A stretch of 63,793 nt of DNA, counting the filler, from Dugesia japonica (lineage: Eukaryota): the NCBI GenBank assembly GCA_001938525.1. It is 5 parts of 5 records of this genome, joined end to end, with 100 filler letters (N's around TTAATTAATTAA, not from the genome) between each part and the next. Parts side by side here need not be neighbours in the genome. Positions count along the whole stretch, not along the records: positions 29,756 to 45,441 come from MQRL01615748.1; 4 more parts are not named here. One strand, written 5' to 3'. Below the pieces are notes generated by a model. It saw nothing but the letters and a program-made list of their open reading frames with translations, did not search any database and was not told where the DNA came from. The position numbers were made by a program, and so were the translations under genes. Numbering within the stretch: position 1 is the stretch's first letter; each line of letters begins with the position of its first letter. Positions 12,422 through 59,399 of the stretch are shown one piece after another.

Positions 12422-13678
12422 ATGTCTAGTAGTAATATTTGTAACAATGTAGACAGTGAGAGTGCCAATGCCGCAATATTTTTATTAAGTCTTAACGATA
12501 GTTTACTGTTACCATATGTGTCATCTGCATCAAATCTATCTATAATAGAGTTTCGAATTATTTTAAAAGAAACATTAATGAAAGAGATTCCTGGTAAACT
12601 TTTATATTCCTGTAGATTATATCATATTTTCTGGACTATAATTCCACCAATAATATTACTCATTGGATCAATTGGAAATGTTTTAGCATGTATTGTTCTT
12701 TGTTGTTATCTCATCAATAAATGTTCCTCCTACATATATTTAGCTGTTATGGTAATTGTCGATGAAATAATTCTNNNNNNNNNNNNNNNNNNNNNNNNNN
12801 NNNNNNNNNNNNNNNNNNNNNNNNNNNNNNNNNNNNNNNNNNNNNNNNNNNNNNNNNNNNNNNNNNNNGGTGTTTCTAGTAGTTTAATTTCAGTATGGTT
12901 GATTGTTGTAATGACTATTGAAAGAGTTATTATTATTTATTTACCACTTAGAGCAAAACAAATAACTCAGAAGAAAATCGCCAGAGGAGTTATAAGTTCA
13001 ACGATATTTTTCAGCTCAATAGTAGCAAGTCATTTTTTCTTCACAGTTGATACTCATTTTACTAAGCAACAGTTGAATAAAACAAATCAAATCCATTCGG
13101 CAGAATGTACAGTAAAATCCCAATTTCACAATTTCTATAGAATATGGACAATTTTAGATGCATCATTGTATAGTTTCATTCCTTTTGGAGTTTTAATTTC
13201 TCTAAATGTGCTTATTGTACGAGAGATTTTACGAACGAAAAACAATCGAACATTTCTTGTAAGTAATTACAATCAAACATGTAGTAAAAGTATGAAAAAA
13301 GTTTCCACAGACACTCATCATCTATCTGTCACCTTAATATTAGTTTCAATAATGTTTCTAATAACAACAACTCCGTTGGTTGTTCTCAAGTTGTTTATTT
13401 ATTTTCGTGATAAAGAAGAAGTCTATCAAAGTGGTATTGTACAATTATTGGACGTTGTATTTGAAATGTTAATGTATACAAATCATTCCATTAATTTTCT
13501 CTTGTACTGTGCAACTGGAAACAGATTTCGACAAAATGTGATTTCTTTATTATTATGCCGGAATCTGTCATTAAATCGACCAAATGAAAACACAAAATAT
13601 GGCAGATCAACAATACAAATGTCGGAAATGGATGCAATGTTGCGTGGAAAACGTTATACGGTTTTCCAAGAAGAATAA
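12422..13678 (+). CDS. Class A (rhodopsin-like) peptide GPCR, FMRFamide/sex-peptide-receptor-like, apparently intronless
   Basis: 418-aa ORF with an in-frame N gap. Motifs: TM1 GSIGNVL, TM2 YIYLAVMVIVD, TM3 MTIERV (DRY equivalent), TM5 IPFGVLISLN, TM6 FLITTTP, TM7 NHSINFLLY (NPxxY variant), helix 8 RFR. Confidence 0.9.
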   Translation: MSSSNICNNVDSESANAAIFLLSLNDSLLLPYVSSASNLSIIEFRIILKETLMKEIPGKLLYSCRLYHIFWTIIPPIILLIGSIGNVLACIVLCCYLINKCSSYIYLAVMVIVDEIIXXXXXXXXXXXXXXXXXXXXXXXXXXXXXXXXGVSSSLISVWLIVVMTIERVIIIYLPLRAKQITQKKIARGVISSTIFFSSIVASHFFFTVDTHFTKQQLNKTNQIHSAECTVKSQFHNFYRIWTILDASLYSFIPFGVLISLNVLIVREILRTKNNRTFLVSNYNQTCSKSMKKVSTDTHHLSVTLILVSIMFLITTTPLVVLKLFIYFRDKEEVYQSGIVQLLDVVFEMLMYTNHSINFLLYCATGNRFRQNVISLLLCRNLSLNRPNENTKYGRSTIQMSEMDAMLRGKRYTVFQEE

Positions 13679-29755: not shown

Positions 29756-30532
29756 TGATATTATGAGAGATAAATATTGTTAGTATGAGTGAGATAAATT
29801 GGTAAAGAATATCAACGAATTAGCAACATATGAGATTGAGCATGAATATATGAAATAGATGTTTCACAGGTAATAAGTGGTGGTTGAATTTCCTCTAATG
29901 TAAAGTTTTATGACTATAGTATGAGTATATGAGAAATATTTACTGTTTTCAATAAAAATATCAAGTTGAGTTAATTAGTTGTTCAATAAATGATTAAATC
30001 ATGCCCTTTTAATATCATAATTATTTATATTTTGTTTTGATTATTCATGATTATTATTGTTTTATATATTATAACTTTTTAATTGATAATAAATTCTCAT
30101 TAACATTATTTTAGATATTATGGTTAACATTAACTGTTTATTCGGTAGAAAAGATACCATGTGAGATAGACGGAAAACGGCAGAAGGATCATTCATGATA
30201 GCGAACGAACATAGAGTGAATAAGAGTGATTAAATAAAACTGACAATTAACGATTTCGCTTCTCGATATCAAATTGTTAAATTGAAAATACGGTCATGTA
30301 CTCTCGGTTCGGTCAAGTATGATGAGTGATCCTGTACCTGCTCAAGAATTAGTAAGGATTTTTTGTAACNNNNNNNNNNNNNNNNNNNNNNNNNNNNNNN
30401 NNNNNNNNNNNNNNNNNNNGTTGAAAACTATAATTCACTAATTTCATAATCATGATTGAAATTTTGTTATGCAGATGTCACGCCCGATCAAGCCAAAAGA
30501 AGCCAAAGCGAGTTCAAATCCCGTAAAAGGAA

Positions 30533-30775
30533 ATGGCTCGTCACAAAAAACAACATTTCGAGAAATCAAATCGATTAGAGGAACAAATTAGGAAACAAGA
30601 GCAACAGTACAAACATCAAATAACCAAAGTCATCATGAATCAGGAGGAGAGAGAAAAAAGACTAGTACGACTGCTGACAGATACTTTCGGGCTAAATAAC
30701 CAGCAACATAGATTGATTGCCACAATGAGGGCCACACAGTTGGAGGTGGAAGAGTTTACAAAGCAAACAATTTGA
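30533..30775 (+). CDS. Short coiled-coil protein of the island family, probably spliced and possibly decayed
   Basis: Q/E/K-rich heptads. LIATMR is shared with 31165 (LIATVR) and ARHKK with 34494. An upstream mini-exon MMSDPVPAQEL|GTAAG lies at ~30319-30351 with an acceptor TGCAG at ~30474. Confidence 0.45.
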   Translation: MARHKKQHFEKSNRLEEQIRKQEQQYKHQITKVIMNQEEREKRLVRLLTDTFGLNNQQHRLIATMRATQLEVEEFTKQTI

Positions 30776-32950: not shown

Positions 32951-34493
32951 TCAAATCAAATTTTTAAATTTTTAAATCATTTTACAAAAAATTGATTTTA
33001 ATGTAAAATAATAAAATAAATAAATAAACAAATATTTACTCTGTGGTAGTTGTCGATAAAATGTTCTGGAAGCTTCTGTAAAAATGGTTTCGATGGCTTA
33101 AAATTTCAAATAATTTTCATAAAATGCTTTTAAGACAAAATTTTTAAATTCTTCTCCTCATTTTTTCCAAGTAATCTAGTTTTATTCATTTTATCGACAC
33201 CACGACTGGAGAGCTTTCACTACTCGCCAAATCGTCGATTCGCATTTCAGAATCTCGTCCGCTCATTGGTTCCTGGAGTCAGATTTACTCGAATCTTTGC
33301 TTGCCTGCATGCGCGATTGATTGACAACGAATTTGGAAAACCAAATTCGTGTCGTCGGGTGGATGCTCTAGTTGATANNNNNNNNNNNNNNNNNNNNNNN
33401 NNNNNNNNNNNNNNNNNNNNNNNNNNNNNNNNNNNNNNNNNNNNNNNNNNNNNNNNNNNNNNNNNNNNNNNNNNNNNNNNNNNNNNNNNNNNNNNNNNNN
33501 NNNNNNNNNNNNNNNNNNNNNNNNNNNNNNNAGTATTTTATATTATTTTTATTATTTGTCTTATTATTTCCTACTCGTACATCCAAATGTCATCGTTGTA
33601 TCTCCAAATTTGGGTCCTCTACGTCAAATTTTCATTTTTTTCCCGTTTCAATAATAATCGTATAATAATTATAATAATAATAATAACATAATAATAATGA
33701 TACTACAAGGCAAAATATCTGGTCCAGCACCTATATTTTACTTAATTTTCCGCTTGTTCTCTGTTAATTTTCGTATTATCTGGGGATGATTTGTTAGCTC
33801 TTTTCCACTAAAATTATTTGTTCTAGCCCAACAAATTACTGGGGGTCCTCAAAAGATTCCGCCCCGGAATTTCTCTCGAAAATTTCTTTTAGTATCATTC
33901 CCTTCGGAACCTCGTAACTTTATTCATCATAACCCGACTTCTAATCTTATCTAGGCTTTGTCAAATTTAAACCGGTCAAAAGGTCCCTCAAGCAAGAGTC
34001 TAATAGGTCATAAAATTAAGTAAAGTAACGAAAACAAGATGAAGAAACAAAAATACATTATTTCATTAAAATATCAATACACATGCATAATTAACCATCA
34101 TAATATAATCATAAATAAATAAACACACTGTCTACACAATTATTGATCAAATACTAGTCACTCAACATTTTAAATTCGCCGATCAAAAAGATTTTTTGTC
34201 ACTATATCAAAGGATAACTGTATAACCGTATAGTTTATTTACTCAGTTTCTTTAGTGCCAACAGAACCGACTTGGGAGATAACTTCAGCTTGGAGATGAA
34301 TAAACGGATTTGGAGACAACTTTGCAGCATAGAACCGCAAGATACACGAAAATGACCAAATTGACAGTAATGGACTGTCAGAGAACATTTGGATATGGAG
34401 ATTGTCATAGATACACATAGAAATAGTTTTACATATAATCATGCTAGTATGTAAATTGTTACACGCAGCACCGCACTGCTCGGAAAGAAGGAC

Positions 34494-34868
34494 TCACCAA
34501 CCCCAGAACAGATCCTCCTCAGACGCTGAATATGGCCATTGAGATAATTGTGTTGAATTGGGAAAACTACTGGAAGGTTGGGAATTGGATTGGTCGGTTT
34601 TCTGCTCTGCGTATTGATCCAACAAACTGACTTGGAGCGCTACTGCCCGCCCATTCGTTTTATAAATATAGAACGTTTGCTCTACCTTCGTCAGATTGAC
34701 CTGTCGAGGGGGAATTACTGCTCGGATAGGAACTTTCTTGTGACGCGCATTTTCATCATGAAGAAGTTTCATTGCATTTTCTAAATTCTGTATGTCGATC
34801 GTGTTTTGTTCTTTATCTAATTTCCATATTATGCTTTCTCTTACCAATCGTTCATTATCTTTTTGCAT
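34494..34868 (-). CDS. Coiled-coil protein exon of the island family
   Basis: N-terminal heptads and ARHKK. A TTACAG acceptor lies just upstream (~34902) and a GTGAGT donor overlaps the stop. Confidence 0.4.
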   Translation of the reverse strand: MQKDNERLVRESIIWKLDKEQNTIDIQNLENAMKLLHDENARHKKVPIRAVIPPRQVNLTKVEQTFYIYKTNGRAVALQVSLLDQYAEQKTDQSNSQPSSSFPNSTQLSQWPYSASEEDLFWGW

Positions 34869-35506
34869 CTAACTCAGTTTCTCTTGTTGTAACCGTTGAC
34901 CTGTAATACGAGCTTTGTTGTTGTTTTATTTTGAATATTTACTCATTAAGATATTGCAAGAGCTGATTATAAAAATTACGGATTAATCGAATTTTATTTG
35001 ATACTGATATTTAAAAATGGTTTTAATAATGTTTTATTTGTTGCCTTGACTGTATTGTATCCTGATTCCATTTTAATTTACAATTTACCGGGTATCACTT
35101 TCACAGATACACCACATGCCACTCCACACTGGGCCATTTACACACTAAATTTGACTTCTCCGACATTAGCGTCTCCCCAACACAGCTCTACAATATTCAA
35201 AAATCTTCAGACACTCTATATACAAATTGGCATTATTCGGATTACGCACTGATTAAATAACTATAATTGGCACTCTACTTATACTATACTTTTACTGTTT
35301 TTTGATTTTTTTGGAATACAAGTTTTTTTTACATAGTAATACATTTACTATTTAATACATATAATCTACAGTACTCTACCTCTCGACATCCATCGTCATA
35401 CATTACTATCTTCTCCGTACCACATCCTCTCACTAGTCTCGATAGTGTTTAAGATTTTGGATACGCTCGGTAATCGGTTAATTTGGGATAAGATAAGCTC
35501 TGCATT

Positions 35507-35737
35507 TTAAGTCTGTAACTCCTCTACTTGGTGTCTCAGATCCTCTACGATTTTGTTAGTTCCGCTCAAGGTTTGTAGGTAAAGATTTTGATTCTCGGTA
35601 ATCTGTCGTCTCTGGTTCTCTACTATTTTATTCAATTGGCGTATCTGCATCACATAAAAATTTTGATTCTCCACAAGGGTTGCGTTTAATTGTCGGGTCT
35701 GTTGTAACTGTTCGTTTAATACATCGGAATTCCTCAT
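35507..35737 (-). CDS. Short coiled-coil protein with an internal 25-aa tandem duplication
   Basis: ENQNFYVMQIRQLNKIVENQRRQIT / ENQNLYLQTLSGTNKIVEDLRHQVE. An upstream TTTATAG acceptor at ~35760 suggests this is a spliced exon. Confidence 0.5.
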   Translation of the reverse strand: MRNSDVLNEQLQQTRQLNATLVENQNFYVMQIRQLNKIVENQRRQITENQNLYLQTLSGTNKIVEDLRHQVEELQT

Positions 35738-36107
35738 TACGCTCCGACAGTGTTCGTCCTATAAATTCTACATTGCAAAATAAGGATTTAAAGGCTTATT
35801 AAGCACTTGGGGTATAAGTTTGCGCCGGTTTCTCCATAATTGTTCTGCCGACGTCGTCTAGCTCCATATTTACTGTTAACCGTCCATTCATTGTTATCTG
35901 TTTCTGTTCCATTTTACTAAAAAAAATACTACGGTAAAAAATACTACAGTGATCCTTTCTAAATCAAGTTTACAAATTACTCCATATTTTAATTTAAATT
36001 TATTCAGCTATGCTTTACTTTACATTTCGAGCTACTCAAAAACTACATTGTGTACCTTACTGTTACATTTAGGTAATTTATTTACAACTTTGTTTCCACT
36101 AATCTCC

Positions 36108-37054
36108 TCAATAACTCCACAACGACTCAGTTCCTCCCTCAAGGACTCCCATACGCACCAACTCTCTTGGCGGGTGTAAATATTTTGCTGTCAACTCTCT
36201 TAATTCCAGATCTAAACGCAGTCTCAGATACTGCCCTCGTTTTGCTTTACAGACTAATATTGTTTTAATCGTCATCATAATTATCGTAATGACGCCCGCT
36301 ACTCCACCACTGAATCCTGCTGGCCAATTCTTTTCATTTTCCAATTTGCTTTGCATCGTTGAGGCCTCGTGCCTCAACCTAGCTTTTACCTAGCTCAACC
36401 TTCGTGAACCGGTCTTTACCAACTCTTTCATCCATTTTCAATAAAATTGTCTTGTTGTCCATTTAAAATATTCGATGGCTTTCTCGTTGATTCACTTCCA
36501 GTTGTCGTTTTCACATACCTCGTCATTGCATGGTTTCTCTTTTTGCTTCGTACACTGGTTTCTCCCGTACCTTTCTTCATGAAAATTGTTGTTTTCGCCG
36601 TCGTGGTCGTTTTCGGATACACCATCGTCGTCAACTTCTGTGTTGTTGACTTGACCGTTGTCGTCTTTAAGTAAGTCTTCGCTTTTGTTCTCTCTTGTGT
36701 CGTCGGTTTGTTGCCCTGGAGCGTCTCGTCTACCAATATATATTCTAATTCTAACCACTCCCCGTTTTTTCGATTAAGTTTCATTACCATTTCATTTTGA
36801 TTGCAACCCCATCTATATTCTTGTATCATCCCATCTTGCGCCCAATATGTTAAAGATTGATATTGCTTAATTCGAAACAACCATTCTTTCCTACACGATA
36901 CTTGGAACGTACCTTCTGCATCTTGGGGTGTCCTTTGATTCTCTTTGTCTACTATACTCATTTTTATATCGATCATAGGCCACTCTCCTCTTCGAAAGGC
37001 GGCATGCTGTCCCCATATACCTGATGGAAACTGGTTCCATTGAATTCCTGTCAC
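36108..37054 (-). pseudogene. Decayed membrane-anchored protein: aromatic/Cys region, Thr-rich stalk, TM helix, basic tail
   Basis: The 208-aa ORF with KTTTVKSTTQKLTTMVYPKTTTTAKTT joins, through a frameshift near 36430 and one stop, to ..WPAGFSGGVAGVITIIMMTIKTILVCKAKRG. Confidence 0.55.
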
Positions 37055-37087
37055 ACCCCGTATTTCGCTCTTCTAGACTTTCGAGAT

Positions 37088-38547
37088 TTATCCCGCCCGT
37101 TTTTTCCGACATTTGTCTCTGAATTCGAGCCAGGCTGGCTCATATCGGTCACGCGTAAAATATAACACATGAATATAGTGGTTGTAATTAAAACTCCACT
37201 CTTGGTTGGCTTCGAATAATCCTGAATTATGGTTGATGGTAAGAAGTATGTCCTCATCCCTCACAACACCCCACGGTTCTTGGTTGTATTGGAAAATTTG
37301 AACTTGCTGTTTCTTATTACCTTTGATCTTGATGTCTAGAGACCAGGCGAATCTATAAATATCCAATCTATTTTCTTGAATTGCTCTAATCTCCTGCATT
37401 AACTCAGGTGTGAACGGCATTTCAAACAGGACATTGCCCTTGAGGTCCATCATTCCAATTACTACTATCTCGTCCTCGACTTTGTCATTATCTTTTGTGC
37501 CGCCCTCAAGAATCCCACAAAAGTTCAACGTTTCTGCTTCCTTTAGCGTTTTAGTTTTCGTTTCTGGTTCCGTAATTACATCCCTTTTTTTCAATTGTTT
37601 GCTTCGTTCTTCTTTCCACATCTCCACTTGACTTCGGCGCTTGCTCAAATTCTGTTCTTGTCCTTGTTTTGCTCATTGCCGCAGCGCTTGTAGGTACAAG
37701 TTTTTCATCGCTTCACTCTCTTCTACCAATAATGGTTGTGGATAAACATCTGCTATTCTCTGGTACTCGATTACCATATCTTCACTTCTTCTTAATCGTT
37801 CTTCGCACACTTGTTCGGTAAGTGATTTTTCTTCGTAAGATTCCTCCAGTTTTAGATATTCCTCTAGCTTTTTGTAGAGCGCACCATATTCTCTTTTATA
37901 TTCTCGTTCATGATACTTTTGGAGTTCTAGATCTGTGGGCCATTTCTCCATTCTATCCCCATTTCGTATCATGGATAACTTTTCTCCTGGACGTTCTGCA
38001 CCCCATTTGGGTTTTTTCCCTTGATAATACGCTTGCATTTCCAAATTTTTCTCTTTAGGTAGGTTCGTTCCACGACTCAATACTGTTTCTACTGTTAATA
38101 ATATGACCGTTTCTATTTCCTTATTTTTCTCCTTTCTTTTTTGCTCCTCTTCTGACGTTGGCCACTCTTAGGATTTCTTTTTCTCGATCGTTACTGGTAT
38201 TTCCGTCTTTCTTTCCTCTTTATGTTCCTCGATCCATTTTGATAACATCTTTCTCCGTACGCTTTAATCTTTTCTAGTATGGCTGTTTGCATCTCCACTT
38301 TATCTATAAAATACGCTCTCATCATAGTTATTGTCTCTGCAATAAATTGTACCGTCTCTGCCATCCTTTTGGCTTGCTCTGCTTTATATTCCGCATCATT
38401 TAGTTGTTCTTCATACTTTTCTTGACGCTTACTGTGGGCTTCCCACATAGTTTTTAATTTTTGTTTATTCTCCTCGGAGATAGTAAATTGAAAGTTTTGT
38501 CTCTTTAAATCGCAGTATGTTCTATTGCTCTCTCGCATCTCTTTCAT
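37088..38547 (-). pseudogene. Decayed large coiled-coil/charged protein (ORFs 38191-38547, 37673-38080 and 37088-37648 joined)
   Basis: The 37673 and 37648 ORFs are in frame and separated by one TGA (ALRQ*AKQGQEQNLSKRR). A frameshift near 38230 restores KWIEEHKEERKTEIPVTIEKKKS*EWPTSEEEQK, which echoes EKWPTDLELQK. Confidence 0.55.
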
Positions 38548-38629
38548 TATTTGTTTTTTTCAATAAATTTTTTGTGAATTCTCCGTATACGCTCATTGAA
38601 CAACAACTCAGGCCAATCACTCCCCCCGT

Positions 38630-39662
38630 TTAAAAATCGACGGCTTCGTCGATGCTTTGCATCTGAATGTTAGTTCCACTGCACCGTTCTTTTGGTGCTA
38701 TTGGTGTCAACGATTCTCCTTTAACTGGTATGGTTTGGCCTAGCTTTAACCATTTCTTGGCCTCATATAACACATTCATTGCCTCTTGCAATTGACCGCG
38801 CATATCGATTGCGCATTCCAAACACAATTCTTTGTATACCGTTTCTAGTATTGGCAACTCCAGTTGGACTTCTTCAAACATTGTGGCTGGTAGTATTATT
38901 TCGTTCGCCATTTCATCCAATCTAACTGATATACCATCGTCTTCCTGATCCAAATCCACTTCTTTGGTTTCAGTGGTATTTCCGACTCTGACGTTGTCGC
39001 TGGTTCCATTTAGGTGATCTCAATTTCTTCATCACTCAAACGATCTTCAAGATTCCAAATCTGCTCGATAATCTCATCCTCGGTGGTATTGTATGTTGTT
39101 GACTCCTTGATTGATGATTTTCTCGTCCGTCTTCTTGATTTGGCAACTACTTCACTCATGTTACCTAGTGTCATTGGTTGTACAAATGATTTTATCGATG
39201 TCTGACTTGATTCTAGTCCGGATTGCAATTTATTTTTAATTTCATCGGCTGATAATTTTCGTCTGATCAATCGTTTACTACCTTCCGGTTTGATATACAT
39301 TTTATTTTCTACCTTTTGTCAGATATTCAACGTTCCGATGATATCGTTATTTATTAATCCCGATTATTCAATAGTAGTACATATGGCGGCTTGAATGGAA
39401 TTTTGGATTTCATCTGCTCTACTGTCCCGTAAGCCAAATCCGAGATTCTCGATTCATGACCATCTGGTTCTACGATTCTGAAGCTAAATCTAAGTGGTAA
39501 TACTTCATCTTATTCGCATTTTCTCCATCTTGATATCAGCAGTTTAAATTGTTTCGGTCTCCATTTGCATTCCTCTTTACATCTGGATATTTCATAGGTC
39601 AATGATCTCAACTCCTCGATGGACAAATCACTCTGCAATAATTGATCCGCTATATGCTCCAT
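38630..39662 (-). pseudogene. Decayed protein with a ubiquitin-like domain followed by basic and acidic regions
   Basis: From ATG 39662: MEHIADQLL...CE*DEVLPLRFSFRIVEPDGHESRISDLAYGTVEQMKSKIPFKPPYVLLLNNR/LINNDIIGTLNI*QKVENKMYIKP runs into ORF 39010-39300. A frameshift near 39020 leads to DHLNGTSDNV...VDLDQEDD (ORF 38630-38959). Confidence 0.55.
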
Positions 39663-39673
39663 GCTTGTTTTGT

Positions 39674-41002
39674 TTATACTTTTTCTTGAATTTTGGATAT
39701 AAATTGATCTACCAGATCGGCGGAATCTCCACTACACTTTTTTGATTTACCGGACATTACGGCTACCATTTCTTGTGATCGACTAAACTCTTGATTTGAT
39801 TTGTATTGTCGATGTAATCTCGGTCTCTGCTGTATTACTGCTACCGTTTCTCGATTTGCTAATTCAATTTCCTCATGATGTAGTTTCAATCCCCATGGCA
39901 ACTTGGAATTGATATTATCGACATAATATTGTATTGTCTTTCTACACAAATTCTCACTAATTGACTTTAACATATACGGGTTTCTCTCATTTTCTCTACT
40001 TGCGATAATATAAACATTCATCATATGGCCTGGCCATATACCTGATCTCTTTACGGGATATTCATCGTGACTCTCAGTGATCTCTCCTCCACAATAAACT
40101 ACAATATCCTCTCGTTTGGTTATTGGTGTACTCTCTTTTCCTTTCACCGTTTGTTTATTCAAATGTTGGATAATTTTCTTTATTAATTTATCCCAACTTG
40201 TCGTCGTTTTAATATCGAAATCTTTACTTGATTCATCCGGAAAATCTACGGTTCTCTGCACATCTTGTTTTGATATGCTATCTGCATGAGTTATCGTTAA
40301 CGTATGTATAAGCGTGTACAACGTTTTCCCTCCTATCATACACAATTGATTCAATCTGTTTTTTATCTCTTGAATATTCAATTCTGTCATTTGATTGTAA
40401 TTCTCGTAAATTGTTAACGCCATCTTTGCCGTAGTCGGTTTCAAACTCTTCCATGGTTCACTCTCATTTTCCGCTTCTGCAATCCGCTCGATCTTCTCGT
40501 CAGTGACGATTCTCAAATATTCCATTTTATCTATTTCGTCTACATACACATTTCTCATTTTTGTTCTAATTTGACTAATTGACTGTAATTCAAACTTTTT
40601 CGGTTTTCCGTCATCTAATTCCAACGTTAATTCAGTAATCTCTCCTGGTCTCAATTGAAACTCAATCACATGTTGATCCCCTTTATTCAACTTATCCCTT
40701 TGTATAATAATATATACACACATAATTCGATACTTCTCAAATGTTTTCTCTAAAGGTAATTTACTCAATATTGCTCGCAACTCACCCACTCTGGTGGTTT
40801 GAAGTTTCTCAACTATTTTCGTCTGCATGGTCATGCAAAAATTATCATCCATCGTAGAATAATGGATTTTTACCCAAAAATCCGATCCTACTGTTGTTAT
40901 TACTATCATCTCCTGATACTCTTTAATTAATTCAGACCAATTCCTCCGTTGTTCCCATAGTATATCATAATGATAGTGTGCATCCCAGACTAAATTCAGC
41001 AT
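39674..41002 (-). CDS. 442-aa protein with at least two putative ubiquitin-like (beta-grasp) domains
   Basis: Intact ORF. Residues ~65-128 (TTRVGELRAILSKLPLEKTFEKYRIMC...DQHVIEFQLRPGEITELTL) are paralogous to the Ubl-like units at 41445 and 42250. Residues ~250-325 (TVDFPDESSKDFDIKTTTSWDKLIKKI...DIVVYCGGEITESHDEYPVKRSGIWPGHMMNVYII) follow ubiquitin spacing. Confidence 0.65.
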   Translation of the reverse strand: MLNLVWDAHYHYDILWEQRRNWSELIKEYQEMIVITTVGSDFWVKIHYSTMDDNFCMTMQTKIVEKLQTTRVGELRAILSKLPLEKTFEKYRIMCVYIIIQRDKLNKGDQHVIEFQLRPGEITELTLELDDGKPKKFELQSISQIRTKMRNVYVDEIDKMEYLRIVTDEKIERIAEAENESEPWKSLKPTTAKMALTIYENYNQMTELNIQEIKNRLNQLCMIGGKTLYTLIHTLTITHADSISKQDVQRTVDFPDESSKDFDIKTTTSWDKLIKKIIQHLNKQTVKGKESTPITKREDIVVYCGGEITESHDEYPVKRSGIWPGHMMNVYIIASRENERNPYMLKSISENLCRKTIQYYVDNINSKLPWGLKLHHEEIELANRETVAVIQQRPRLHRQYKSNQEFSRSQEMVAVMSGKSKKCSGDSADLVDQFISKIQEKV

Positions 41003-41008
41003 TCTTCA

Positions 41009-42057
41009 TTACGTTTGTTTCTGAATTAATTCCTTTCTCTCCAATGTGATACCCATGTATTTGTTTATTGCAGCTAAGTTATGATAGAAGTCCTCATTAC
41101 TGTCCTCGTTGTCAGTAGCTGATGTTTCACTCGGCTTATTCACACTTCGTTCTCCAACATTATTTGATTGTTTACCACTCTTTTTACCTCTATTTATTAT
41201 TTTACTCGAAAATGATCTCGAAAACTTTTCATCATTAACTTCTTTAGTAGATTTAATAACAACGCTCGGTATTTCAACTTTTGGTAATTCACTTGACTGG
41301 ATTTCCAGTGGTGCCCTCTTCTCTGATATCGGCGCGAGATATTTGATTTGGCATTTATTCAACGAAATCATTATATTTTTAGTTGTTCTAAAGTAGAAAT
41401 AGGCCAAATTAGTTCGTTATATAAACGCATTCTCCGACTCTCCAACAACGTAATTACCAAAGTAGTTCCAGATTTTAGACCATATTCATAAATATGGGCA
41501 CTTACATCATTGATGCTAACTACTGACACCGGTGTACAAACAATATAATCGCCTATGGGTTTTGCCCACTCAACCTCCTCCAACGCATTGAGTAAATCTT
41601 TTACAATCGTTCCTTTCAGTTTTAACACTCATGGGATTTTTTACTTGGTCGCCATTGGTACTTTCTTCAAAACCTGATCCATCGTAATGTATGCAGTTCT
41701 ATCTTCATCCGGTCTCCAGGCTTCCATTGCTTTGAATTTAAAATCCTCCACGGTTGTATTTTCTATAAACGTTTTCTCATACTCAAGAATTATTGGTCTC
41801 CACCTTTGATTGATCATCGTACCCATATGTCCTGGCTCCGCTAATTCAACCAAATGATACATTAATTTCCAATAAACCTTTCTGGTTAATTCATCTTTCA
41901 ATAATTTAGCATCCATTATGACTGTTTCTACATAAATATACACTCTTGTTTTGTATCTAATCGGTGCATTTGATCGCGCTGGATTTCTTTTGGTTATCAT
42001 ACTGATTTGAGCCATGGTATTTTCTGTTTTCGATGCTCCTCTTGTTTGTAGAGTCAT
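41009..42057 (-). pseudogene. Ubl-domain gene A2 (three ORF-track pieces joined)
   Basis: 41641-42057 and 41371-41628 are in frame via ATK*KIP*VLKLK; a frameshift near 41410 leads to AYFYFRTTKNIM. Ubl-like core: TIVKDLLNALEEVEWAKPIGDYIVC...AHIYEYGLKSGTTLVI. Confidence 0.65.
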
Positions 42058-42761
42058 TAACTGTCTGATCTCTCCAGAAATCCTTGCTGTAATTTACTTA
42101 TTCCTTTGGTTGTAGTTTTTGACTCCGTTCGTACTAACACCATTTATTTGTGATATTTCTTATCAAATGATTTTACTATTTGCTCGGTTGTTCTGAAATC
42201 AAAATAATACTACAATGGTCGTTTAATACGATGCATTTTTACTAAATCTATTAACTTTATTGTTGTTTTACCTGACCAGACTCCATATTCCGATATATGT
42301 GCTTTAGCATCATCTTTTTCTATCACTTTGGTTCGAGAACACAACACATACTCTTCGATAGGCTTTGGCCATGCCAGTTCATTTACTGCTTGTAATAATC
42401 CACCCACAGTAGTATCCTTTAACAAAATTTTCCTAGGTATCTCTTGATCTTTCAATTCAGTTGAATCTTCATGTGTGACTGGCTTAATCATACTATAATC
42501 ATCGGGTTTCATGTGACTTCGAATTTCCGATTCATATTCTTGCGCCTGAGGAAACCACACTTGACTGGTGTACACATCTAATTCACCTGACTCCATTAAC
42601 TCCAACACATGGTTCATCAGTGCCTAGTATGCTTCTCAGTAGACCACTGCCTTGAATGTTTGAATCATTGTAACTTTATCCTCCACTTGCCTCGTTATCA
42701 CTGCTCTTTTTGCTGTTAGTTTTGCCGGTAGTTCTACCTCCATTGGCTGAGCTCTCATCAT
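42057..42761 (-). pseudogene. Ubl-domain gene A1, tandem paralog of A2
   Basis: One frame from ATG 42761: MMRAQPMEVELPAK...VY*EAY*ALMNHVLELMESG...DTTVGGLLQAVNELAWPKPIEEYVLC...AHISEYGVWSGKTTIKLI...RPL*YYFDFRTTEQIV...SDS*. The final TAA overlaps the A2 start codon (TAATG). Confidence 0.65.
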
Positions 42762-43637
42762 ATTTTATTGTCCTTGATTATTTTCTCGCTTTTGTATTCT
42801 CTCTCTAGCCACATGCTGCTCCTCCAATTGTAATTGTAAATATTCTTGCTCTTGTTTCAACTTGTCAAAAACTCGCTGTTCTGTTTCTTTATCACATTCT
42901 ACTACAATTTTATCGATTTTCAAAATTTCAATTTTTTCAAATAATTATTTATTTCGTAAATCCTATTCAATTCCGACATCATTTCATCAATTAGCCAAAT
43001 TTCTGACTTTTAAATAATCATTTATTTTCATGATTGCTATTTCACACTAATTTAAAGAAACAATTTTATATTTTATCTTTCTCGATTCATTGATCAGCTT
43101 CTTTCCATCATAACCATTGTTTCATTATTTTATTTCATATTCATTTGCTGATTGTGGACTATTAATCCATTTGATACAGATTTTATTTGGAATGATTAGT
43201 AAAATTCCCAGCTGAGCCTCCAAAATAATTGTTGGGTTTTTAGGATTTTAAATAGTTTGAATTTAACATCTGCATTTGTCGACATCGATTATTTTCCTCG
43301 ATATATAAGTCGATTTATTTAGTCTAGGGGCATACCTGAAAACCACAAGCATTTGAGTCACCTCTGTGACATGCCCCTCTTCTCAAGTGTTCAGTGCGAC
43401 TTTGCGGTATCGCGTCTTACGTTTTCTTTTCATGGACCCACATCTCAATCACACTTAATTGCTCAGTATTGATTTTACATAATCAGGTTTGATAAAATTT
43501 AACTGGTCATACATAACCGCGAATAAACATAATAAGAATCAATGACGTTAAGAACTATTTATTCGCCTCTATTCACATGCATCTAACTCCACCAACTTCC
43601 CTTCGCGCGGCTCATCCGTTGGGTTTCGGTACAACAA

Positions 43638-43832
43638 TTACAGTGCCCTCAAATTGTTGAACACCACGGCCTCTCTTGTTGCATTAATTTTGATAATTTC
43701 GGCCATCAACCAGTTGGCTTGCTGCAATGCCAACTCTTTCTCTTTTTGTTGTTGATATTTGCTACTATGCTTGGTAGCCTGGCTTTTCAGATGCAGCACT
43801 TCATTTCTTAGCGCACGACGCTCCTTTTCCAT
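43638..43832 (-). CDS. Short coiled-coil protein, paralog of 31165-31365
   Basis: See 31165. An upstream TTTCAG acceptor at ~43891 suggests a spliced exon. Confidence 0.55.
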   Translation of the reverse strand: MEKERRALRNEVLHLKSQATKHSSKYQQQKEKELALQQANWLMAEIIKINATREAVVFNNLRAL

Positions 43833-44484
43833 TTCTTCTGTAGGGCTATCATTTCTTTTACTGGAGTCTTATTATCTTTTATCGAATTCACTGAAATAAT
43901 CATAATAAATTATTTTAGCATTAATTATTAAACTAAGTAATAGTTGAATTATAAATCAAGAAATTTTTAAATTATTTCAATTATTTACAGCGTTAAATCT
44001 TAAACTATGAAATCGCTTCTTATTAATGCTAATCTGAGAATAAAAGTCGATTGTATACCACAGCATTATTCAAATAAAATTTATTTCACAACCCCGACTC
44101 AATGATGTTTTATCGATTTGATATAAAAAAAGTTGTCCGGTGGTTACCCCGTCTCTTCGTAAATAATCATAAACACAGAGGACTCGTTATATTCCAATAT
44201 GCTCTAATTTACGCATGCATTTCTCATCTTCATTCTTATTTTGGTTTATTTAATTAACGAAAAAGTTCTATTTATCTAACAATTAAAATTAAAATTATTC
44301 AAAGATTGCCTCTGCAATCACCGTGACATACATATCACTTTAATCTTTCAAACTAAAATGCAAACAAAACAAATCAACAAAACAACTCTCGTTTGACAAC
44401 GCTACACATTTTATTTACTGTAGTAGGCAGATATGAGCGCACCAAACCAGGGCCCCCCAAGAGGGTACCCCCACCCCCTTTTTA

Positions 44485-45312
44485 GACTCCACCCCTTTTT
44501 ATCTTTTGGACTCCGCCCCTTTTTATCTTTTTCTCCGCCCACTTTTTTTGACCACGCCCACTTTTAATCTTTTTTGCCTCCCACCTTTTTAACCACGCCA
44601 TTTTTATGTTTTTCTCCGCCCACTTTTTTGGCCACGCCCCTTATTATCTTTTTCTCCGCCCACCTTTTTGACCACGCCCCTTTTATCCTTTTCTCTGCCC
44701 ACTTTTTTGACCACGCCTCTTTTTATCTTTTTCTCCGCCTACTTTTTTAGCCACGCCCCTTTTTATCTTTTTCTCCGCCCACTTTTTTATCTTTTTCGCC
44801 GCCCACTTTTTTTGGCCACGCCCCTTATTATCTTTTTCTCCGCCAACCTTTTTGATCACGCCCCTTTTTATCCTTTTCTCCGCCCACTTTTTTGACCACG
44901 CCCCTTTTTATCTTTTCTCCGCCCACTTTTTTAGCCACGCCCCTTTTTATCTTTTCGCCGCCCACCTTTTTTGGCCACGCCCCTTATTATCTTTTTCTCC
45001 GCCCACCTTTTTGACCACGCCCCTTTTATCCTTTTCTATGCCCACTTTTTTGACCACGCCCCTTTTTATCTTTTTCTCCGCCTACTTTTTTAGCCACGCC
45101 CCTTTTTTATCTTTTTCTCCGCCCACTTTTTTATCTTTTTCGCCGCCCACTTTTTTTGGCCACGCCCCTTATTATCTTTTTCTCCGCCAACCTTTTTGAC
45201 CACGCCACTTTTTATCCTTTTCTCCGCCCACTTTTTAGCCACGCCCCTTTTTATCTTTTCTCTGCCTACTTTTTTTGGCCACGCCCACTTTTTTTTACTC
45301 GCCTACTTTTTG
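44485..45312. repeat. Tandem array of ~40-bp units (CCACGCCCCTTTTTATCTTTTTCTCCGCCCACTTTTTT[GA/GG/AG]) with ~343-bp higher-order periodicity
   Basis: About 20 units are visible. The variant order starting GCCACGCCCCTTATTATC at 44631 recurs at 44974. Confidence 0.95.
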
Positions 45313-45441
45313 ATGACTCATAATTTTTTTCAAAAAATTTTCTATGTCAGAACAAAGTTACTTTGTGTTATTTACATAGTAACGCTGTATAATACGTATT
45401 ATAAGGATTATGAGTGTAATATTTACATAGTAACTCTGTAT

Positions 45442-45541
45442 NNNNNNNNNNNNNNNNNNNNNNNNNNNNNNNNNNNNNNNNNNNNTTAATTAATTAANNN
45501 NNNNNNNNNNNNNNNNNNNNNNNNNNNNNNNNNNNNNNNNN
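45442..45541. other. Artificial scaffolding linker (right boundary of the island block)
   Basis: N44-TTAATTAATTAA-N44. Confidence 0.9.
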
Positions 45542-49890: not shown

Positions 49891-50426
49891 ATTATCAAAA
49901 CAAAAAAAAATTTCAAACCTTTTATTTTAATGAATTTCTAAAAATGATCAATGGTTACGTCCAACAATTATTATATTATATTNNNNNNNNNNNNNNNNNN
50001 NNNNNNNNNNNNNNNNNNNNNNNNNNNNNNNNNNNNNNNNNNNNNNNNNNNNNNNNNNNNNNNNNNNNNNNNNNNNNNNNNNNNNNNNNNNNNNNNNNNN
50101 NNNNNNNNNNNNNNNNNNNNNNNNNNNNNNNNNNNNNNNNNNNNNNNNNTTCATTGTTATTTTTAATTTGTAAAAAATGTATTATTATTACATAAATTGA
50201 AATTTGACATATTAAATATAAGTATACATAAATGCAATATTTTATTTGTAAATTTATCTTGAAAATAAAAGTCCAAATAATGAAGAGTAAATGTAAAGTA
50301 ATTTAATTTAGAAATTGAAATATAAATTTTAAAAATATCATTTTTACTAACATTAATTTTTTAAATCCTTTTTAATATTTTAATTGTACATTTACAGTTA
50401 TAGTTAAAAACTAAAAATTAATTGAC

Positions 50427-51361
50427 CTGTAATTCTTCTTCAATGTCTGAAATAGTTGCCTTATTTCTTTGAAGGCGTTCGAATTGTTCCAAATATCTTT
50501 GATAAATACTTCTTAATGCGACACATGCGTTGGCACATTTAGGTGGAATTTTGAGATCTTTCATTACGCCTTCCCAAGATAATTCCGTAACCATCTGAAT
50601 GGAAATAATTTTTAATTGCTTTAACTTAGACAACTATAACAATCCAATGTTTTTGTAGTATTTTCACGGTTTACTGAACCAATCATGGGTGGATTATTAT
50701 TATAGTACAATCTATACTCGCTGTTTATTTGACATGCCAACTTCAACAATGATTTCAAGTATCTATCTCAGGCACACCCAGCAATACATATTTATACATA
50801 CAGACACTGTCAGGCATACATACAAGTCACTAAAAATAGAAACATGCAGGTATCGGAACAAGACGTAATGGCGTAAATTGTTCGATCTACTTTCTGATCA
50901 TCAATGTCATCTAATGGCACTGTGTTGTCATCAATCACGCTGTTAATAATAATGTAGAAAAATTCATTGGAATCTCTTGTTACTAATTCTAGCACCAATT
51001 AAAATTGATTTTCAAAATCTAACTCCTATTTTATTGTACAATCCAATTATAAAATCTCATTCAACTACAGTATTATAATTTGTTTTACTTACCTTCTTTA
51101 ATCCACCTCTTTGTGCCACTGCATTGTACATAGCTAGTAAATCGATTCTACGCCCGAATAAAGTAGGAACATGATTTATCGGTGTACTATGAAAATTTTA
51201 AATTAAAAAGATTACAATCATAATATTTACTATTGACTCTCTTGAATTTTGATTACATCTTGAAGGAATTGATCAGAAGTACGATCTGTAATTTGGGGTA
51301 AAAAACTAAATCCCCCATTTAAACCTGATATGTTTTTTCTATTTTGTCTATTATTACTCAT
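50427..51361 (-). CDS. ARID2: ARID2/BAF200-like gene, ARID-domain exons (51231-51361, 51093-51186, 50427-50594)
   Basis: Spliced translation: MSNNRQ...SDQFLQDVIKIQESQYTPINHVPTLFGRRIDLLAMYNAVAQRGGLKK|MVTELSWEGVMKDLKIPPKCANACVALRSIYQRYLEQFER. This is an N-terminal ARID with the ARID2-type CxNAxxAL..Y.RYLE motif. Introns are GT-AG with consistent phases. Downstream exons were not identified. Confidence 0.8.

Positions 51362-54479: not shown

Positions 54480-54542
<63 letters not shown>
54480..54542. repeat. (ATT)n microsatellite
   Basis: About 20 perfect units; similar degenerate tracts at ~700-735, 12180-12265 and 22853-22890. Confidence 0.95.
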
Positions 54543-54545
<3 letters not shown>

Positions 54546-54589
54546 TTAATTTTTATTATGATTATAAATATAAAAATAAACACTGAATA

Positions 54590-57500
54590 CGGAAAACTTA
54601 ATATTGGCGTTGTACATAAAGCTTGTTTGATCTCATTAAAGCTTTTTTTGCACTCTTCAGTCCATTGAATTTCTTGTTTATGGCCTCCCATTGCAGCATA
54701 TAATGGTTTAGCAAGTAACGAAAATTTTTTAACAAGCTTCCTGTAATAGATTGACTAAAAAAGAACGTAATTGTTTAGTGCATTTTGGTATTTTTGCTTT
54801 TGCAATTTCGAAGACTTTCTGAATTCAGACTCAATCCGTCTTTGCTAACTGTATGGCCTAAAAATAACAATTCACTTTGACATAATTTACATTTATTTAA
54901 ATTGATTTTGAGATCAGAAAGAATTTTGAATTCTTTGAAATACATTGACAAGTATCATGTTCTGATCGACTTTTTGCAAATTTTAAAATATCGTCAATAT
55001 ATACAACTACATCTTTAAATAAAATCCCATCCAAAATTGCATGAATTTCTGAAAAGTAGCTGGAGCAGTTGATAACCCAAATGTCTTACGATTGTAGTAA
55101 GATTGTCCCTTCTTTGTTGAAAATGCCGTTTTAATCTTATCTTCTTCGTTTAATTCTAATTGATAATAAGGTTGTCCCACATCCAACGTTTAAAATATTG
55201 TACAACCACAAAGGTGATCAAACAAGGTTGGTGGATTTGACATTGGGAATGAAACTTCTTTGTAGAATTATTCAACATTCTTAAGTCTTGGCACATTCTG
55301 ATCGCGCTATTCTTTTTACCAACAATTAGCATCGAAAAATTCCAAGCACTTCTGCATTCTTTGAAAATATCACTTTCTGATACTCTTCCTGTGTCAAATG
55401 AGATGGTTATAAAATATAAAAATATGAACATATGTTAGAATTATTTATTTTTATTAATGATTAATTCCTAAAATAAATTTTAAAATTTTTAATAAAGAAA
55501 TATTTTCAAATACGAATTGATTCGAATTTTTAAATTATTTAATGTGGAAAAGTTGTAAATAATTTCTATAATAAATAAATGTTTGCTTTCAAAATAATTA
55601 AATTTGTTAAAAAATTTTGTTATAACAGAACCTTGGTTCTTACCTGGGCCACTCTAACCACGGGGCTAAATTGGCTATAGTCCCAGGTGGCAAGACTTTT
55701 GGGCGGCAATTTTTATTTGCTATACATATTCAAATTTTTGTTATTATTAGTTATTTAGTTATTAGTTTTAGAAAAATTCATTTTTCATTTTATTAGTTTT
55801 CACGTATTTTTAAATTAAAACAATTTCTTAAAATATTTAACTGATTTTTATATTCAAATGTGCTGGAATGACAAACGATATTACAATAATTTATGATGTC
55901 ATCAACTTCGATAGACGACTTAAATGTAAGCAGAACACCTATGCATACTCACCGCCAGGGTGTATTTCTTTATCTAAACGTAATTTATATTATTTTAATA
56001 ATCCTACTCAAAGATAGGAACAGGTTACTGATACTTACCTGAATAAAAACTATACGACAAAAATTAATTTTATATAATTTTAGTATTTTTGTCCGGAAAT
56101 GTTTTTTAATTTTATTTAATTCAATTTTGTGTTTTTAGTATTTAGGTAATAAATTAATTTTTTCCAGTTCTGACACTTTTGTATAACTTTGCTAGAGACC
56201 CCACTCCCGTTTGCTATTCTGTGAACTATCTTACAAAGAGGGGTGCATTATTTTTAGTAGTCCATAGGCGCCGTATTTCTAAAAAGATGGTCTAGGTTGT
56301 TAATACGAGCAAATAAGAATCTCAACAATATACTGAGATTAGTTTAACTATATTGTCTGAAGGCAATTATTACAATAAAAATAGGCTTAAATGAAAAGTA
56401 TATATTAACGATTATGTGGATGAATACTCTTCAACTGATTCTTTGCTTCATGTACATACATACGTACATACAAATTGTTCATATATATATATACAACTCA
56501 ATTACACTCCATGAAAACCAATCGAATTATCAAAAAATATAAAGTATTCAAGATGATTTTTACACTTTTAACGAATTCTGGAAAAAATCAATGGTTAAGT
56601 CCTATCATTATTCTCGCAATACTTGTATTGGTTGACGTCAAGGTTGTTGTAGAATATGGTCACCAACTGTTGGAATAAAATGTTTTACAACATGTGTTTT
56701 TCCAAGATTAAAAGTATCTGCCATAAATATATTTGAAAACTTTAGAAGCATTTCTTTTAAATTATTTTCTTTCGGTTTTTAATGCTGCTAAGGCTGTCTT
56801 ACAACGATCATTATCAGTGAATTTGTTGTAAATGTTCTCTGAGTCCAAAATATTAAGCATTTTTAATTGAATATTAAATGCATTAAACATATCAATTCCA
56901 CCAATAAATTCTGGATTTATTCCATCAACAATCACAATGTAAACAATTTTCTTCACATTTTCAAATTCTATTTCAACTTTTCCAATTCCTGAACAGTTCA
57001 CTGCTTCTTGAAAATGCACCACTCAATTTAATATTGCATTTATCCAATGGAAAAGATCCACTGTCTCTCCATAACTTTGTATGCATCACTAATATTAAAG
57101 CACCTGTATCCCACAACATTTCGACCATTTTAATTCTAACTTTGACAATACTCTGTTTTACCACAAATTAGACAACATGATTTCAGAGGGCAGTTATTAA
57201 GTAAAAGACCTATCAGACCCCAGCAAAAATATGAGCCTTTTTTAATTGTTCCTCTTTTGGGGGAGGAAGTCCTTTTGATCTATTGTACAATTTCCTTGCA
57301 ATAAACTTCATGGAAACTGTTGGCATATTTCTAAATTAACCTTCTCTACTGTTTTTGGAATCATTAAATTTTTCAGCAATTGGAATTGCCTTTTCAATTT
57401 CATTATTCCTAGGTTTATAATAATTAGAACCTTTTAAATCAATTTTCTTAATTCTCAGATTGTAACTTGCAGCTGCCACTTCTCAGTAAGTCAACTTATT

Positions 57501-58150
57501 TATCTGTGACCCACTAAAATTTTCATCGTTCTTCTCAAAATTTTCAGCCAACTTTCTCATTTAATCCGGCTTAAATTATGGTTTAAGAGCAAATGATTTT
57601 CTTAGCTCTTCGGAACCAACTCTTTTCTTGATTATTTGCTGAGCAATTTCCTCCACAGTCAATCCTGATTCAAATATTTCTTTGACTGATCCTAATACTC
57701 TTAATTCAAAGTTTTCGAAACGTTCATTTTCTTTTTGTCGGATTCCACTACGTTCTTCAATGATTCGGAGAAATGACTTTTCTTTTATAAATTTTCCTTT
57801 AAACCATTCGCTAGCCGTTTTATCGTTCACATTCTGTTGGCTTTTAAATACTTGCCTCAGGTCTTTTGCATCACCGTCTAATAAAAAAATCAGAAGTTGA
57901 TAATAAATCAAAACTGTTTGATTCTGAAAAAACTGAAATTTCATTTAACCATTTTGCTGGGTCTTCGTCATAGTTCCTTGAGAATTTCGTAATTTTAGGG
58001 GTTAAAAATTCCCTCGACTCTTTAGGCAAAGCTTCGTAGATTCTTTTGGCTTTGGTTTCGTGGTTTCGAGTAATTGGGTTCAGCTGGACTGGATCGCCAG
58101 TTAAATCAAGAGTCTTAATTTCCATAACAGCTTTATTTACTAAGTTCAAA
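54590..58150 (-). mobile_element. Decayed Ty3/Gypsy element: gag (57300-58149), protease (~56760-57165), RT/connection (54590-55400)
   Basis: VEMLWDTGA; SAWNFSMLIVGKKNSAIRMCQDLRMLN; GLSTAPATFQK; DVVVYIDDI; WTEECKKSFNEIKQALCTTPILSFP. Multiple frameshifts, and an unrelated insert at ~55400-56600. Confidence 0.9.
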
Positions 58151-58549
58151 TATATAACTGAATCTTAAAAAACAATATTTAAACAAATATTCAGTTTTTT
58201 TAAATATTCAACTATTATTTTTATTATTTCATTAAAATAAGATAAAGCTAATTTTTTTGTAAAAAAGTTCAAATTTTCGACAATAGACTTCTTCAGGAAC
58301 ATGTTGGCTTCTTGAGATATTCAATACAATAGATTTTTGTTACTAAATTCTTTAAATTTTATCAAAATTTTATTGGTTAATTTTTTTTTAAATCAACTCA
58401 AAAAATTGCTAAAATAAATCTTCATTGTGATCAAATATTAATTATTGATTATTTAGTGTACTTTTTAATATAATACTTCATATTATTTTTAGTTGACTTT
58501 CATAAGCACAAGTAACATTAATATATTCACTTTTAAATTTAAAAATATT

Positions 58550-59175
58550 GCATGGTCAAATCACATTAATCTTAGCGCCAGTATCAAGTAAACAATTAAC
58601 ATTTAATTCATTATTTAATTTTAACTTTAAACAAGGTCTTCCTGAAATTTTATGATACACAATTTTATCTTCATAATTATTTATTATATTTACATTATTT
58701 AAATTTTTATTTAAAACTGAAATATCATTAGAAATTAAAATGTTATCTATAAAATATTCATTTTTTTATTCTAAAGTTTTATTAAATAAATCATCAATCA
58801 ACAAATATTTATATTCATTTAAGCAAACTTAATCATTCAATTTTTTATAATTTTCATTATATACGTCAAACAAGCATTCATATCACATACATTAGTGCTC
58901 AAAACATTATTATCTAACCTAGATTTATAGCTTCAACTGCATCCTCCCTCATCAGAGCTTTGGTATTTCCCGAATTATTTCCTTGATCTACTTCATCACT
59001 GGAACAGTATCATCATAATCATCATTATCATAGGCATTCATTTGAAATCTTCGTGGCTTGTTGTACATTTGTCTTCTTTCTGCTCTTAAAGGAGTAATTT
59101 CATGGCATTGAAATCTGATATGTCCTGGATTCTTACAATGCGAACATTTAACATTAGGACATTGTGAGCGTAAGA
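58550..59175 (-). mobile_element. Second LTR-retrotransposon gag zinc-knuckle and protease fragment
   Basis: CSHCKNPGHIRFQC (CX2CX4HX4C) at ~59105-59146 and GRPCLKLKLNNELNVNCLLDTGAKINVI at ~58560-58643. Confidence 0.85.
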
Positions 59176-59399
59176 AGATTAACTAATTCCTATGTATTTA
59201 GTTGGAAATAATTTTTACGTATTGATTATATAATCGGATTAAATGACTTAATCCAATTACGTAAAAAGTTTCCTAACTAAAAAACCTGAAAACCAAAGTG
59301 ACTCCGAAGTATTTATACAGTGATTTTGATTTTCCATACAATTTTTACGTAATCAGTCAAACTTTTCATCGGGAGTTTCGATTTAGGTTGATTTGTCAG

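What the first reader, a model, noticed from the sequence alone, without database searches (positions are those of the whole stretch)
39290..42761. Array of at least five divergent ubiquitin-like domains across four adjacent genes
Seen: units at ~42250-42440 (TTVGGLLQAV..KPIEEYVLC..AHISEYGVWSGKTTIKLI), ~41445-41630 (TIVKDLLNAL..KPIGDYIVC..AHIYEYGLKSGTTLVI) and ~40620-40810 (TRVGELRAIL..KTFEKYRIMC..QHVIEFQLRPGEITEL) align with each other. Units at ~40005-40255 and ~39290-39490 (FRIVEPDG...GTVEQMKSKI..YVLLLNNR.LINNDIIGTLNI) follow the same spacing. Established: ubiquitin has the pattern TI..VK.KI......P..QRLIF.GK.L.D..TL.DY.I....TL.L. Inference: these are integral Ubl (beta-grasp) domains without a C-terminal GG, so they are not conjugatable. 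They could be decoys or adaptors for host proteasome/p97/DUB machinery. An expanded Ubl family is not a cargo I know for any named transposon family.
Basis: partly seen in the sequence, partly recalled or inferred. Interest (0 to 1): 0.85.

Follow-up and report, generated by a model that had tools for sequence, protein, structure and literature searches.

The report
Ubiquitin-like repeats in abundant mobile element
This is a decayed copy of a very abundant repeat in an animal genome, likely a giant planarian-type retrotransposon, in which what is likely one long broken gene carries three duplicated protein modules and two further segments that likely fold like ubiquitin; one such domain is already described for that kind of element, so the news would mainly be their number.

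Summary
They are not four genes. They lie along one 1,217-codon reading path with 11 stops and 4 frame changes; 6 of the 11 stops are absent from at least 99% of the laid contig depth, the other five were not among the rows shown. The block is a very high-copy repeat (20,062 contigs laid from one DNA run). The ubiquitin fold is supported at lead level for unit 4 (language-model neighbours 0.88-0.90), weakly for unit 5, and only by eye for units 1-3: Pfam, PDB, a ubiquitin HMM and two low-confidence AlphaFold models gave no significant match. No gag, RT, integrase or LTR lies in the fragment, so the class is inferred. Ubl cargo is not new: Burro elements carry a SUMO-like domain (PMC6431247), and this scan noted two to four tandem Ubls in such elements on other DNA. 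Verdict: real tandem array in a dead mobile-element copy, Ubl call plausible but unproven.

The parts
35128..43067 (.). High-copy repeat block, GC 35-40% against about 22% in the flanks, strongly strand-skewed
   Evidence: Composition; summed contig word depth 13,753-75,841 per bin in run X1 against 1,586-6,239 in 33540-35127 and 43465-44258
36108..42944 (-). Decayed long coding region, likely one ORF of about 2,280 codons (continuity examined for 42944-39286, inferred further downstream)
   Evidence: 88% covered by stop-free stretches of 60 or more codons on - against 17% mean, 37% max in 200 Markov controls; stops not shared by laid contigs
42213..42761 (-). Module 1: about 90-residue N-terminal part plus candidate Ubl unit U1 (about 42240-42500); stops at 42636-38 and 42624-26
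41401..41988 (-). Module 2 with candidate Ubl unit U2 (41431-41751); stops at 41641-43 and 41629-31
   Evidence: Paralogue of module 1, E 4e-19; Pfam DUF2604 only at E 0.11-0.22
40592..41080 (-). Module 3 with candidate Ubl unit U3 (40610-40891); stops at 41009-11 and 41006-08
   Evidence: M2-M3 z 9.2 (0 of 2000), M1-M3 z 3.8 (13 of 2000)
39995..40270 (-). Unit U4, best-supported Ubl-like segment, unrelated in sequence to U1-U3
   Evidence: ESM Atlas neighbours 0.88-0.90 include ubiquitin-like, PF11976, PF00240, PF10790 clusters; ubiquitin HMM 125 of 1000 shuffles
39286..39509 (-). Unit U5, split by a frame change near 39357 and a stop at 39319-21
   Evidence: Ubiquitin HMM 17 and 40 of 1000 shuffles for the halves; similarity to module 2 at 1 of 2000
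38633..39019 (-). Helical-looking segment after the array; a BH3/Bcl-2-like look by eye (recalled motif) was not confirmed
   Evidence: No Bcl-2 hit in Pfam, PDB or NCBIfam
36470..36710 (-). Thr/Lys-rich low-complexity stalk
   Evidence: Sequence
36249..36305 (-). Predicted single transmembrane helix near the end of the coding region
   Evidence: Kyte-Doolittle 19-residue maximum 2.12; at most 1.25 in the other 11 ORF pieces scanned

Best explanation
The stretch is a decayed copy of a very abundant repeat, likely part of a giant Burro-type LTR retroelement of a planarian-like animal, and its pieces likely formed one long protein with tandem modules whose ubiquitin-like parts would act as built-in, non-conjugatable docking domains for the host ubiquitin-proteasome machinery. 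Shown: high copy number signal, coding bias on one strand, paralogy of modules 1-3, private stops in this copy, no terminal GG. Inferred: the array grew by internal duplication of a roughly 170-residue module (spacing about 810 bases), with U4 and U5 older or separately acquired; the protein ended in a Thr-rich stalk and one membrane helix; the Ubl-like domains bind ubiquitin/SUMO receptors and so tune turnover or host response, as proposed in general terms for Burro cargo. This copy itself cannot make the protein.
For: 20,062 contigs of X1 and 11,864 of X2 lay on 11.9 kb, most 90-99% alike. 88% coding cover on -. 6 of 11 stops on the path absent from at least 99% of depth in both DNA runs; length differences or loose ends at 3 of the 4 frame changes. 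Module paralogy. U4 neighbours are Ubl clusters including PF11976, the family reported in Burro. In a loop-tolerant ubiquitin threading U1-U4 scored 43-52, above all 7 in-frame controls (8-31). Burro elements are present in thousands of copies, have very long ORFs, accessory ORFs and ubiquitination-related cargo (PMC6431247 section 7).
Against: No gag, protease, RT, RNase H, integrase or env hit in any of the block's ORF pieces scanned and no LTR pair in the window; no sequence comparison with Burro was possible. No Pfam ubiquitin-family hit for any unit, no Ubl among PDB hits at E up to 10. U1-U3 at shuffle level against the ubiquitin HMM; threading z only 0.8-1.8 against own shuffles. The U1 ORF's nearest Atlas cluster was unrelated, 0.76. 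U4's Atlas scores are at or under 0.90 with 133-146 of 256 shared features, a level that 4-10 in 100 shuffled proteins reach. Binding to any host factor is untested.
Confidence: 0.5

Rival explanations
1. Only U4 (and perhaps U5) are ubiquitin-like; modules 1-3 are a tandem repeat of some other, unknown alpha/beta domain in the same mobile-element protein.
For: U1-U3 share no measurable similarity with U4 or with ubiquitin; the AlphaFold model of U1 (pLDDT 50) was not beta-grasp; Atlas gave an unrelated cluster for the U1 ORF.
Against: The order strand-helix-strand-strand-short helix-strand and the closing 'EYG' motif fit ubiquitin by eye (recalled pattern); U2 matches U5 in register at the first strand; the low-confidence model rests on 3 sequences and cannot exclude a fold.
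Confidence: 0.25
2. The block belongs to another high-copy element, such as a Maverick/Polinton-like DNA element, an endogenous virus or an undescribed class, and not to a Burro-type LTR element.
For: No retroelement enzyme or LTR in the fragment; no homologue among 1.84 billion representatives, in three word-index searches, in viral or metagenome contigs; the coding region appears to end in a membrane helix, not in pol.
Against: No polymerase, integrase or capsid hit either. The AGTAG-starting GC-box array at 44422-45311 is separated from the block by a low-depth stretch and, if it is an element end, faces away. Long ORF, strand skew and Ubl cargo match the published Burro description.
Confidence: 0.2
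3. An expanded host gene family or pseudogene, or chance peptide patterns in repeat DNA.
For: No mobility gene seen.
Against: Thousands of divergent contigs over an intron-free 7-kb coding block with composition unlike the host flanks; module paralogy far beyond chance.
Confidence: 0.05

Closest known systems
Burro1-4 / GYPSM1 giant gypsy-like LTR elements of planarians (PMC6431247, section 7 read whole; figure not seen)
   Same: Very high copy number, very long ORF, accessory coding capacity, a Ubi2/SUMO-like (PF11976) domain without its own gene.
   Different: One Ubl is described there, between MATH and BCL-2 inside the gag-env-pol polyprotein; here up to five candidates, three inside duplicated 170-residue modules, no gag, MATH, BIR, BCL-2, env or pol detected, and a Thr-rich stalk plus membrane helix at the end.
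Integral (type II) ubiquitin-like domains, e.g. Rad23/Ddi1 UBL and the tandem SUMO-like domains of Rad60/NIP45 (names recalled; PF11976 and PF00240)
   Same: Predicted beta-grasp unit inside a larger protein, no terminal GG.
   Different: No significant profile match; long first loop in U1 and U2; no UBA or protease domain detected beside them.
Platyhelminth GAG-ENV-POL errantiviruses (PMC13524379, passages)
   Same: Env-bearing Ty3/gypsy elements of flatworms, the wider group to which Burro-like elements may belong.
   Different: The main text has no occurrence of 'ubiquitin', 'SUMO' or 'Burro'; no gB-type env detected in this fragment.

Membership tests
Ubiquitin-like (beta-grasp) domain | Beta-grasp fold | tested here: inconclusive
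   AlphaFold pLDDT 35 (442-aa ORF, single sequence) and 50 (U1, 3 rows); fold searches on such models are uninformative
Ubiquitin-like (beta-grasp) domain | Profile match to a curated Ubl family | tested here: not met
   No PF00240 or PF11976 hit for 5 of 5 units; ubiquitin HMM from 96 fetched sequences: U1-U4 125-837 of 1000 shuffles, U5 halves 17 and 40. The units are therefore not filed as proven members.
Ubiquitin-like (beta-grasp) domain | Language-model features nearest to Ubl clusters | tested here: inconclusive
Conjugatable (type I) Ubl modifier | C-terminal diglycine | tested here: not met
   No GG at the end of any unit in this copy
Burro / GYPSM1 | Thousands of dispersed copies in a planarian genome | tested here: inconclusive
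   Very high repeat signal, but summed depth is no copy number, no single-copy control was laid, and the organism is coded; 'planarian' is inferred from composition and from unchecked scan notes on this genome
Burro / GYPSM1 | Long terminal repeats | tested here: inconclusive
   No repeat pair flanking the block; the block lies between assembly gaps at 33378-33531 and 45442-45541
Burro / GYPSM1 | gag, PR, RT, RNase H, IN, env, MATH, BIR, BCL-2 in the polyprotein | tested here: inconclusive
   None found in the fragment; an accessory region would lack them
Burro / GYPSM1 | Sequence similarity to Burro library entries | not testable with these tools
   No genome held, no repeat library; the original paper is not held
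Maverick/Polinton | Protein-primed polymerase, integrase, capsid genes between terminal inverted repeats (recalled) | tested here: inconclusive
   No such Pfam hit in the fragment; no inverted repeat pair around the block among the 25 of 54 pairs shown

The most novel reading that the evidence does not exclude
A thousands-copy element of no described class encodes a roughly 2,300-residue membrane-anchored protein whose five tandem ubiquitin-like domains work together as a non-conjugatable polyubiquitin-chain mimic that ties up host ubiquitin receptors.
Probability: 0.12. Interest if true: 0.72.

Novelty: new variant of a known kind. Interest (0 to 1): 0.35.

Why it matters
If the fold is confirmed, a transposon-encoded array of up to five integral Ubl domains would give a concrete handle on the open suggestion that giant planarian retroelements meddle with host ubiquitination, since single 80-100 residue domains from natural copies can be expressed and tested for binding. 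As it stands it extends a published feature in number and arrangement, from a dead copy, without a proven fold or class.

Tried and rejected
Homologue searches found nothing: word-index searches (730 candidates, 4 candidates,716 candidates; none significant), phmmer of the 442-aa ORF against 1.84 billion representatives (0 at E 0.001), viral and metagenome contigs. These collections may simply lack this animal's repeat proteins. PADLOC and NCBIfam gave nothing relevant. A blind ubiquitin-profile scan of the six frames did not rank the units at the top of 1,092 peaks. hhalign of units against the ubiquitin alignment gave probabilities of 1.2% or less; that alignment is shallow (mean identity 88%). 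A five-unit MAFFT alignment mis-registered U4 and U5 and was not used. Fold searches with low-confidence models listed no Ubl near the top; that is no evidence against the fold. In one search, 3 of 10 controls were out of frame and were dropped. The U1-3 profile hit the Thr/Lys-rich stalk at E 0.005; rejected as likely compositional. The NASP hit to 38633-39019 (E 0.011) rests on an acidic stretch; rejected. Expression: no RNA holder listed; X12 laid 680 reads on 11.9 kb, depth at most about 4 per direction in the block, most under 95% alike and 80% running on unlike; X11 and X15 laid 0 reads on 41340-42800 from about 6% and 25% of the runs; none of this is taken as evidence either way. Rfam and ARAGORN found nothing. 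The places where this copy differs from 85% or more of depth fell 15/17/7 on codon positions 1/2/3 (39 of 76 rows); too partial to use. No complex prediction was run because no host partner was available. The label of DUF2604 as a bacterial Ubl is recalled; a paper search for it returned 0, though it co-occurs with PF00240 in one Atlas cluster.

Full report
Setting. The window is an AT-rich (about 22% GC) gapped scaffold with a GPCR ORF, an ARID piece and gypsy fragments, so an animal. No genome is held. 'Planarian' is an inference from composition and from unchecked scan notes on the same genome. Between gaps at 33378-33531 and 45442-45541 lies a block of 35-40% GC with strong skew; its - strand is 40% A and 14% C, and 88% of 36108-42944 is covered by stop-free stretches of 60 or more codons, against 17% mean and 37% maximum in 200 Markov controls and 7-11% in two host-like regions.

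Observation. The quoted peptides are present. U1-U3 are paralogues: local-alignment z 23.6, 6.8 and 5.5 with 0, 0 and 1 of 2000 shuffles reaching the score. The repeat is longer than the proposed Ubl: modules 1 and 2 align over about 170 residues (E 4e-19), with about 90 residues upstream of the unit and a short shared tail; the units recur about every 810 bases. U4 matches none of the others. U5's first half matches module 2 (1 of 2000, in register at the first predicted strand) but not U1, U3 or U4, and a U1-3 profile ranks it only 14th in the window, E 31. No unit ends in GG.

One gene, not four. From 42944 to 39286 a single path of 1,217 codons carries 11 stops (first bases 42767, 42638, 42626, 42212, 42146, 41643, 41631, 41011, 41008, 39512, 39321) and changes frame four times (near 42074, 41400, 39700, 39357). 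In both DNA runs at least 99% of the laid depth lacks the stop at 6 of these 11 codons (42767, 42626, 42212, 41631, 41008, 39321); the other 5 were not among the rows shown (40 rows shown in each call, 1,388 and 36 hidden). Length differences are listed at 41400 and 39357 (31-63% of depth), and loose ends and joints cluster at 42074; nothing was shown for the change near 39700. The simplest reading is one long ORF, dead in this copy. Further downstream the pieces continue through helical, charged segments, a globular-looking region, a Thr-rich stalk and one predicted membrane helix (36249-36305); only one stop there (37088-90) was seen to be private, so continuity to 36108 is inferred.

Copy number. 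20,062 contigs of X1 and 11,864 of X2 lay on 11.9 kb; in X1 2,417 are at least 99% alike, 5,354 95-99%, 8,278 90-95% and 4,013 under 90%. Summed depth is 13,753-75,841 over 35128-43067, while the eight long contigs listed for X1 have depth 4.5-27. The tool warns that this is no copy number and I laid no single-copy control, so 'hundreds to thousands of copies' is an inference.

Is it ubiquitin-like? For: U4's nearest ESM Atlas clusters score 0.88-0.90 and 4 of the 6 listed are named ubiquitin-like or carry PF11976, PF00240 or PF10790; U2 touches PF10790 at E 0.11-0.22; the halves of U5 reach 17 and 40 of 1000 shuffles against an HMM of 96 fetched ubiquitins; in a loop-tolerant threading designed after seeing the data, U1-U4 scored 43-52 against 8-31 for 7 in-frame controls (3 out-of-frame controls dropped). 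Against: no curated Ubl profile hit for 5 of 5 units; no Ubl in PDB sequence searches at E up to 10; U1-U3 at 535, 473 and 837 of 1000 shuffles and U4 at 125; threading z only 0.8-1.8 against own shuffles; the U1 ORF's Atlas neighbour was unrelated (0.76); a blind six-frame scan did not pick the units. AlphaFold gave pLDDT 35 and 50, too low to decide, and the fold searches were noise. My odds: U4 0.7, U5 0.6, U1-U3 0.5.

What element? Nothing in the fragment identifies it: no mobility gene, no flanking repeat pair, no homologue in any collection, no look-alike among earlier scan findings. The closest description is Burro/GYPSM1: thousands of copies, a polyprotein of nearly 5,000 residues, accessory ORFs, a Ubi2/SUMO-like PF11976 domain, and the authors' suggestion that the cargo meddles with apoptosis and ubiquitination (PMC6431247, passages and section 7 read whole, figure not seen). 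A BH3/Bcl-2-like look at 38633-39019, which would match the Burro order, is by eye from a recalled motif and found no support. The GC-box array at 44422-45311 likely belongs to a neighbouring element.

Mechanism. Shown: duplication of modules, lack of GG, decay of this copy. Inferred: integral beta-grasp domains that cannot be conjugated and would serve as docking surfaces for ubiquitin or SUMO receptors, their tandem arrangement adding avidity; a membrane anchor at the far end. Untested: any binding, expression or effect on the host.

Novelty. For arrays, my searches (listings only, apart from the papers named) showed no paper describing tandem Ubls in a transposon; the library lacks most subscription papers, the original Burro paper is not held, and no supplement was opened. 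PMC13524379 (passages) covers flatworm GAG-ENV-POL elements without mentioning ubiquitin in the main text; PMC8532177 and PMC11410931 (passages) mention Burro without domains. Searches were seen as listings only. Unchecked scan notes report two, and three to four, tandem Ubls in Burro-like elements of other genomes and a helical-plus-UBL module; they are leads, not support.

Verdict. A real tandem array in a dead copy of a very abundant, unclassified, likely Burro-type element; partly supported as ubiquitin-like; new variant of a known kind; interest 0.35.

Noticed in passing
window 44422-45311: A stretch starting AGTAG on + runs into an array of 40-base units with GC-box-like motifs; high depth, set off from the Ubl block by a low-depth stretch. 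Likely the end of a separate element; an unchecked scan note calls such ends Maverick-like.
   Followed up: partly
window 43248-43420 and about 33825-33900: Short, very high-depth repeats with many loose ends in DNA and RNA; by eye like the Penelope-type stumps noted elsewhere in this genome; no Rfam hit.
   Followed up: no
window 43638-43868, 35507-35758, 34494-34868 (-), 30527-30775 (+): Small ORFs, three of them coiled-coil-like, with no significant Pfam hit; they may be small genes of a long terminal repeat, as unchecked notes suggest for other repeats of this genome.
   Followed up: no
window 54500-59182 (-): Decayed gypsy-like fragments: zinc knuckle, two aspartic-protease pieces, RT, RNase H-like linker; separated from the Ubl block by gaps and host-like DNA.
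   Followed up: partly
window 50421-50633 (-): ARID domain piece, E 4e-5, likely an exon of a host gene.
   Followed up: no
window 12422-13678 (+): Intron-free rhodopsin-family GPCR ORF (7tm_1 E 6e-13, Srw E 3e-13), with an N run inside.
   Followed up: no
window 33540-45430: Relative to the laid contigs this copy has more C-to-T and G-to-A type differences than the reverse (235 and 147 against 153 and 74 places in X1), as expected for AT-biased decay.
   Followed up: no
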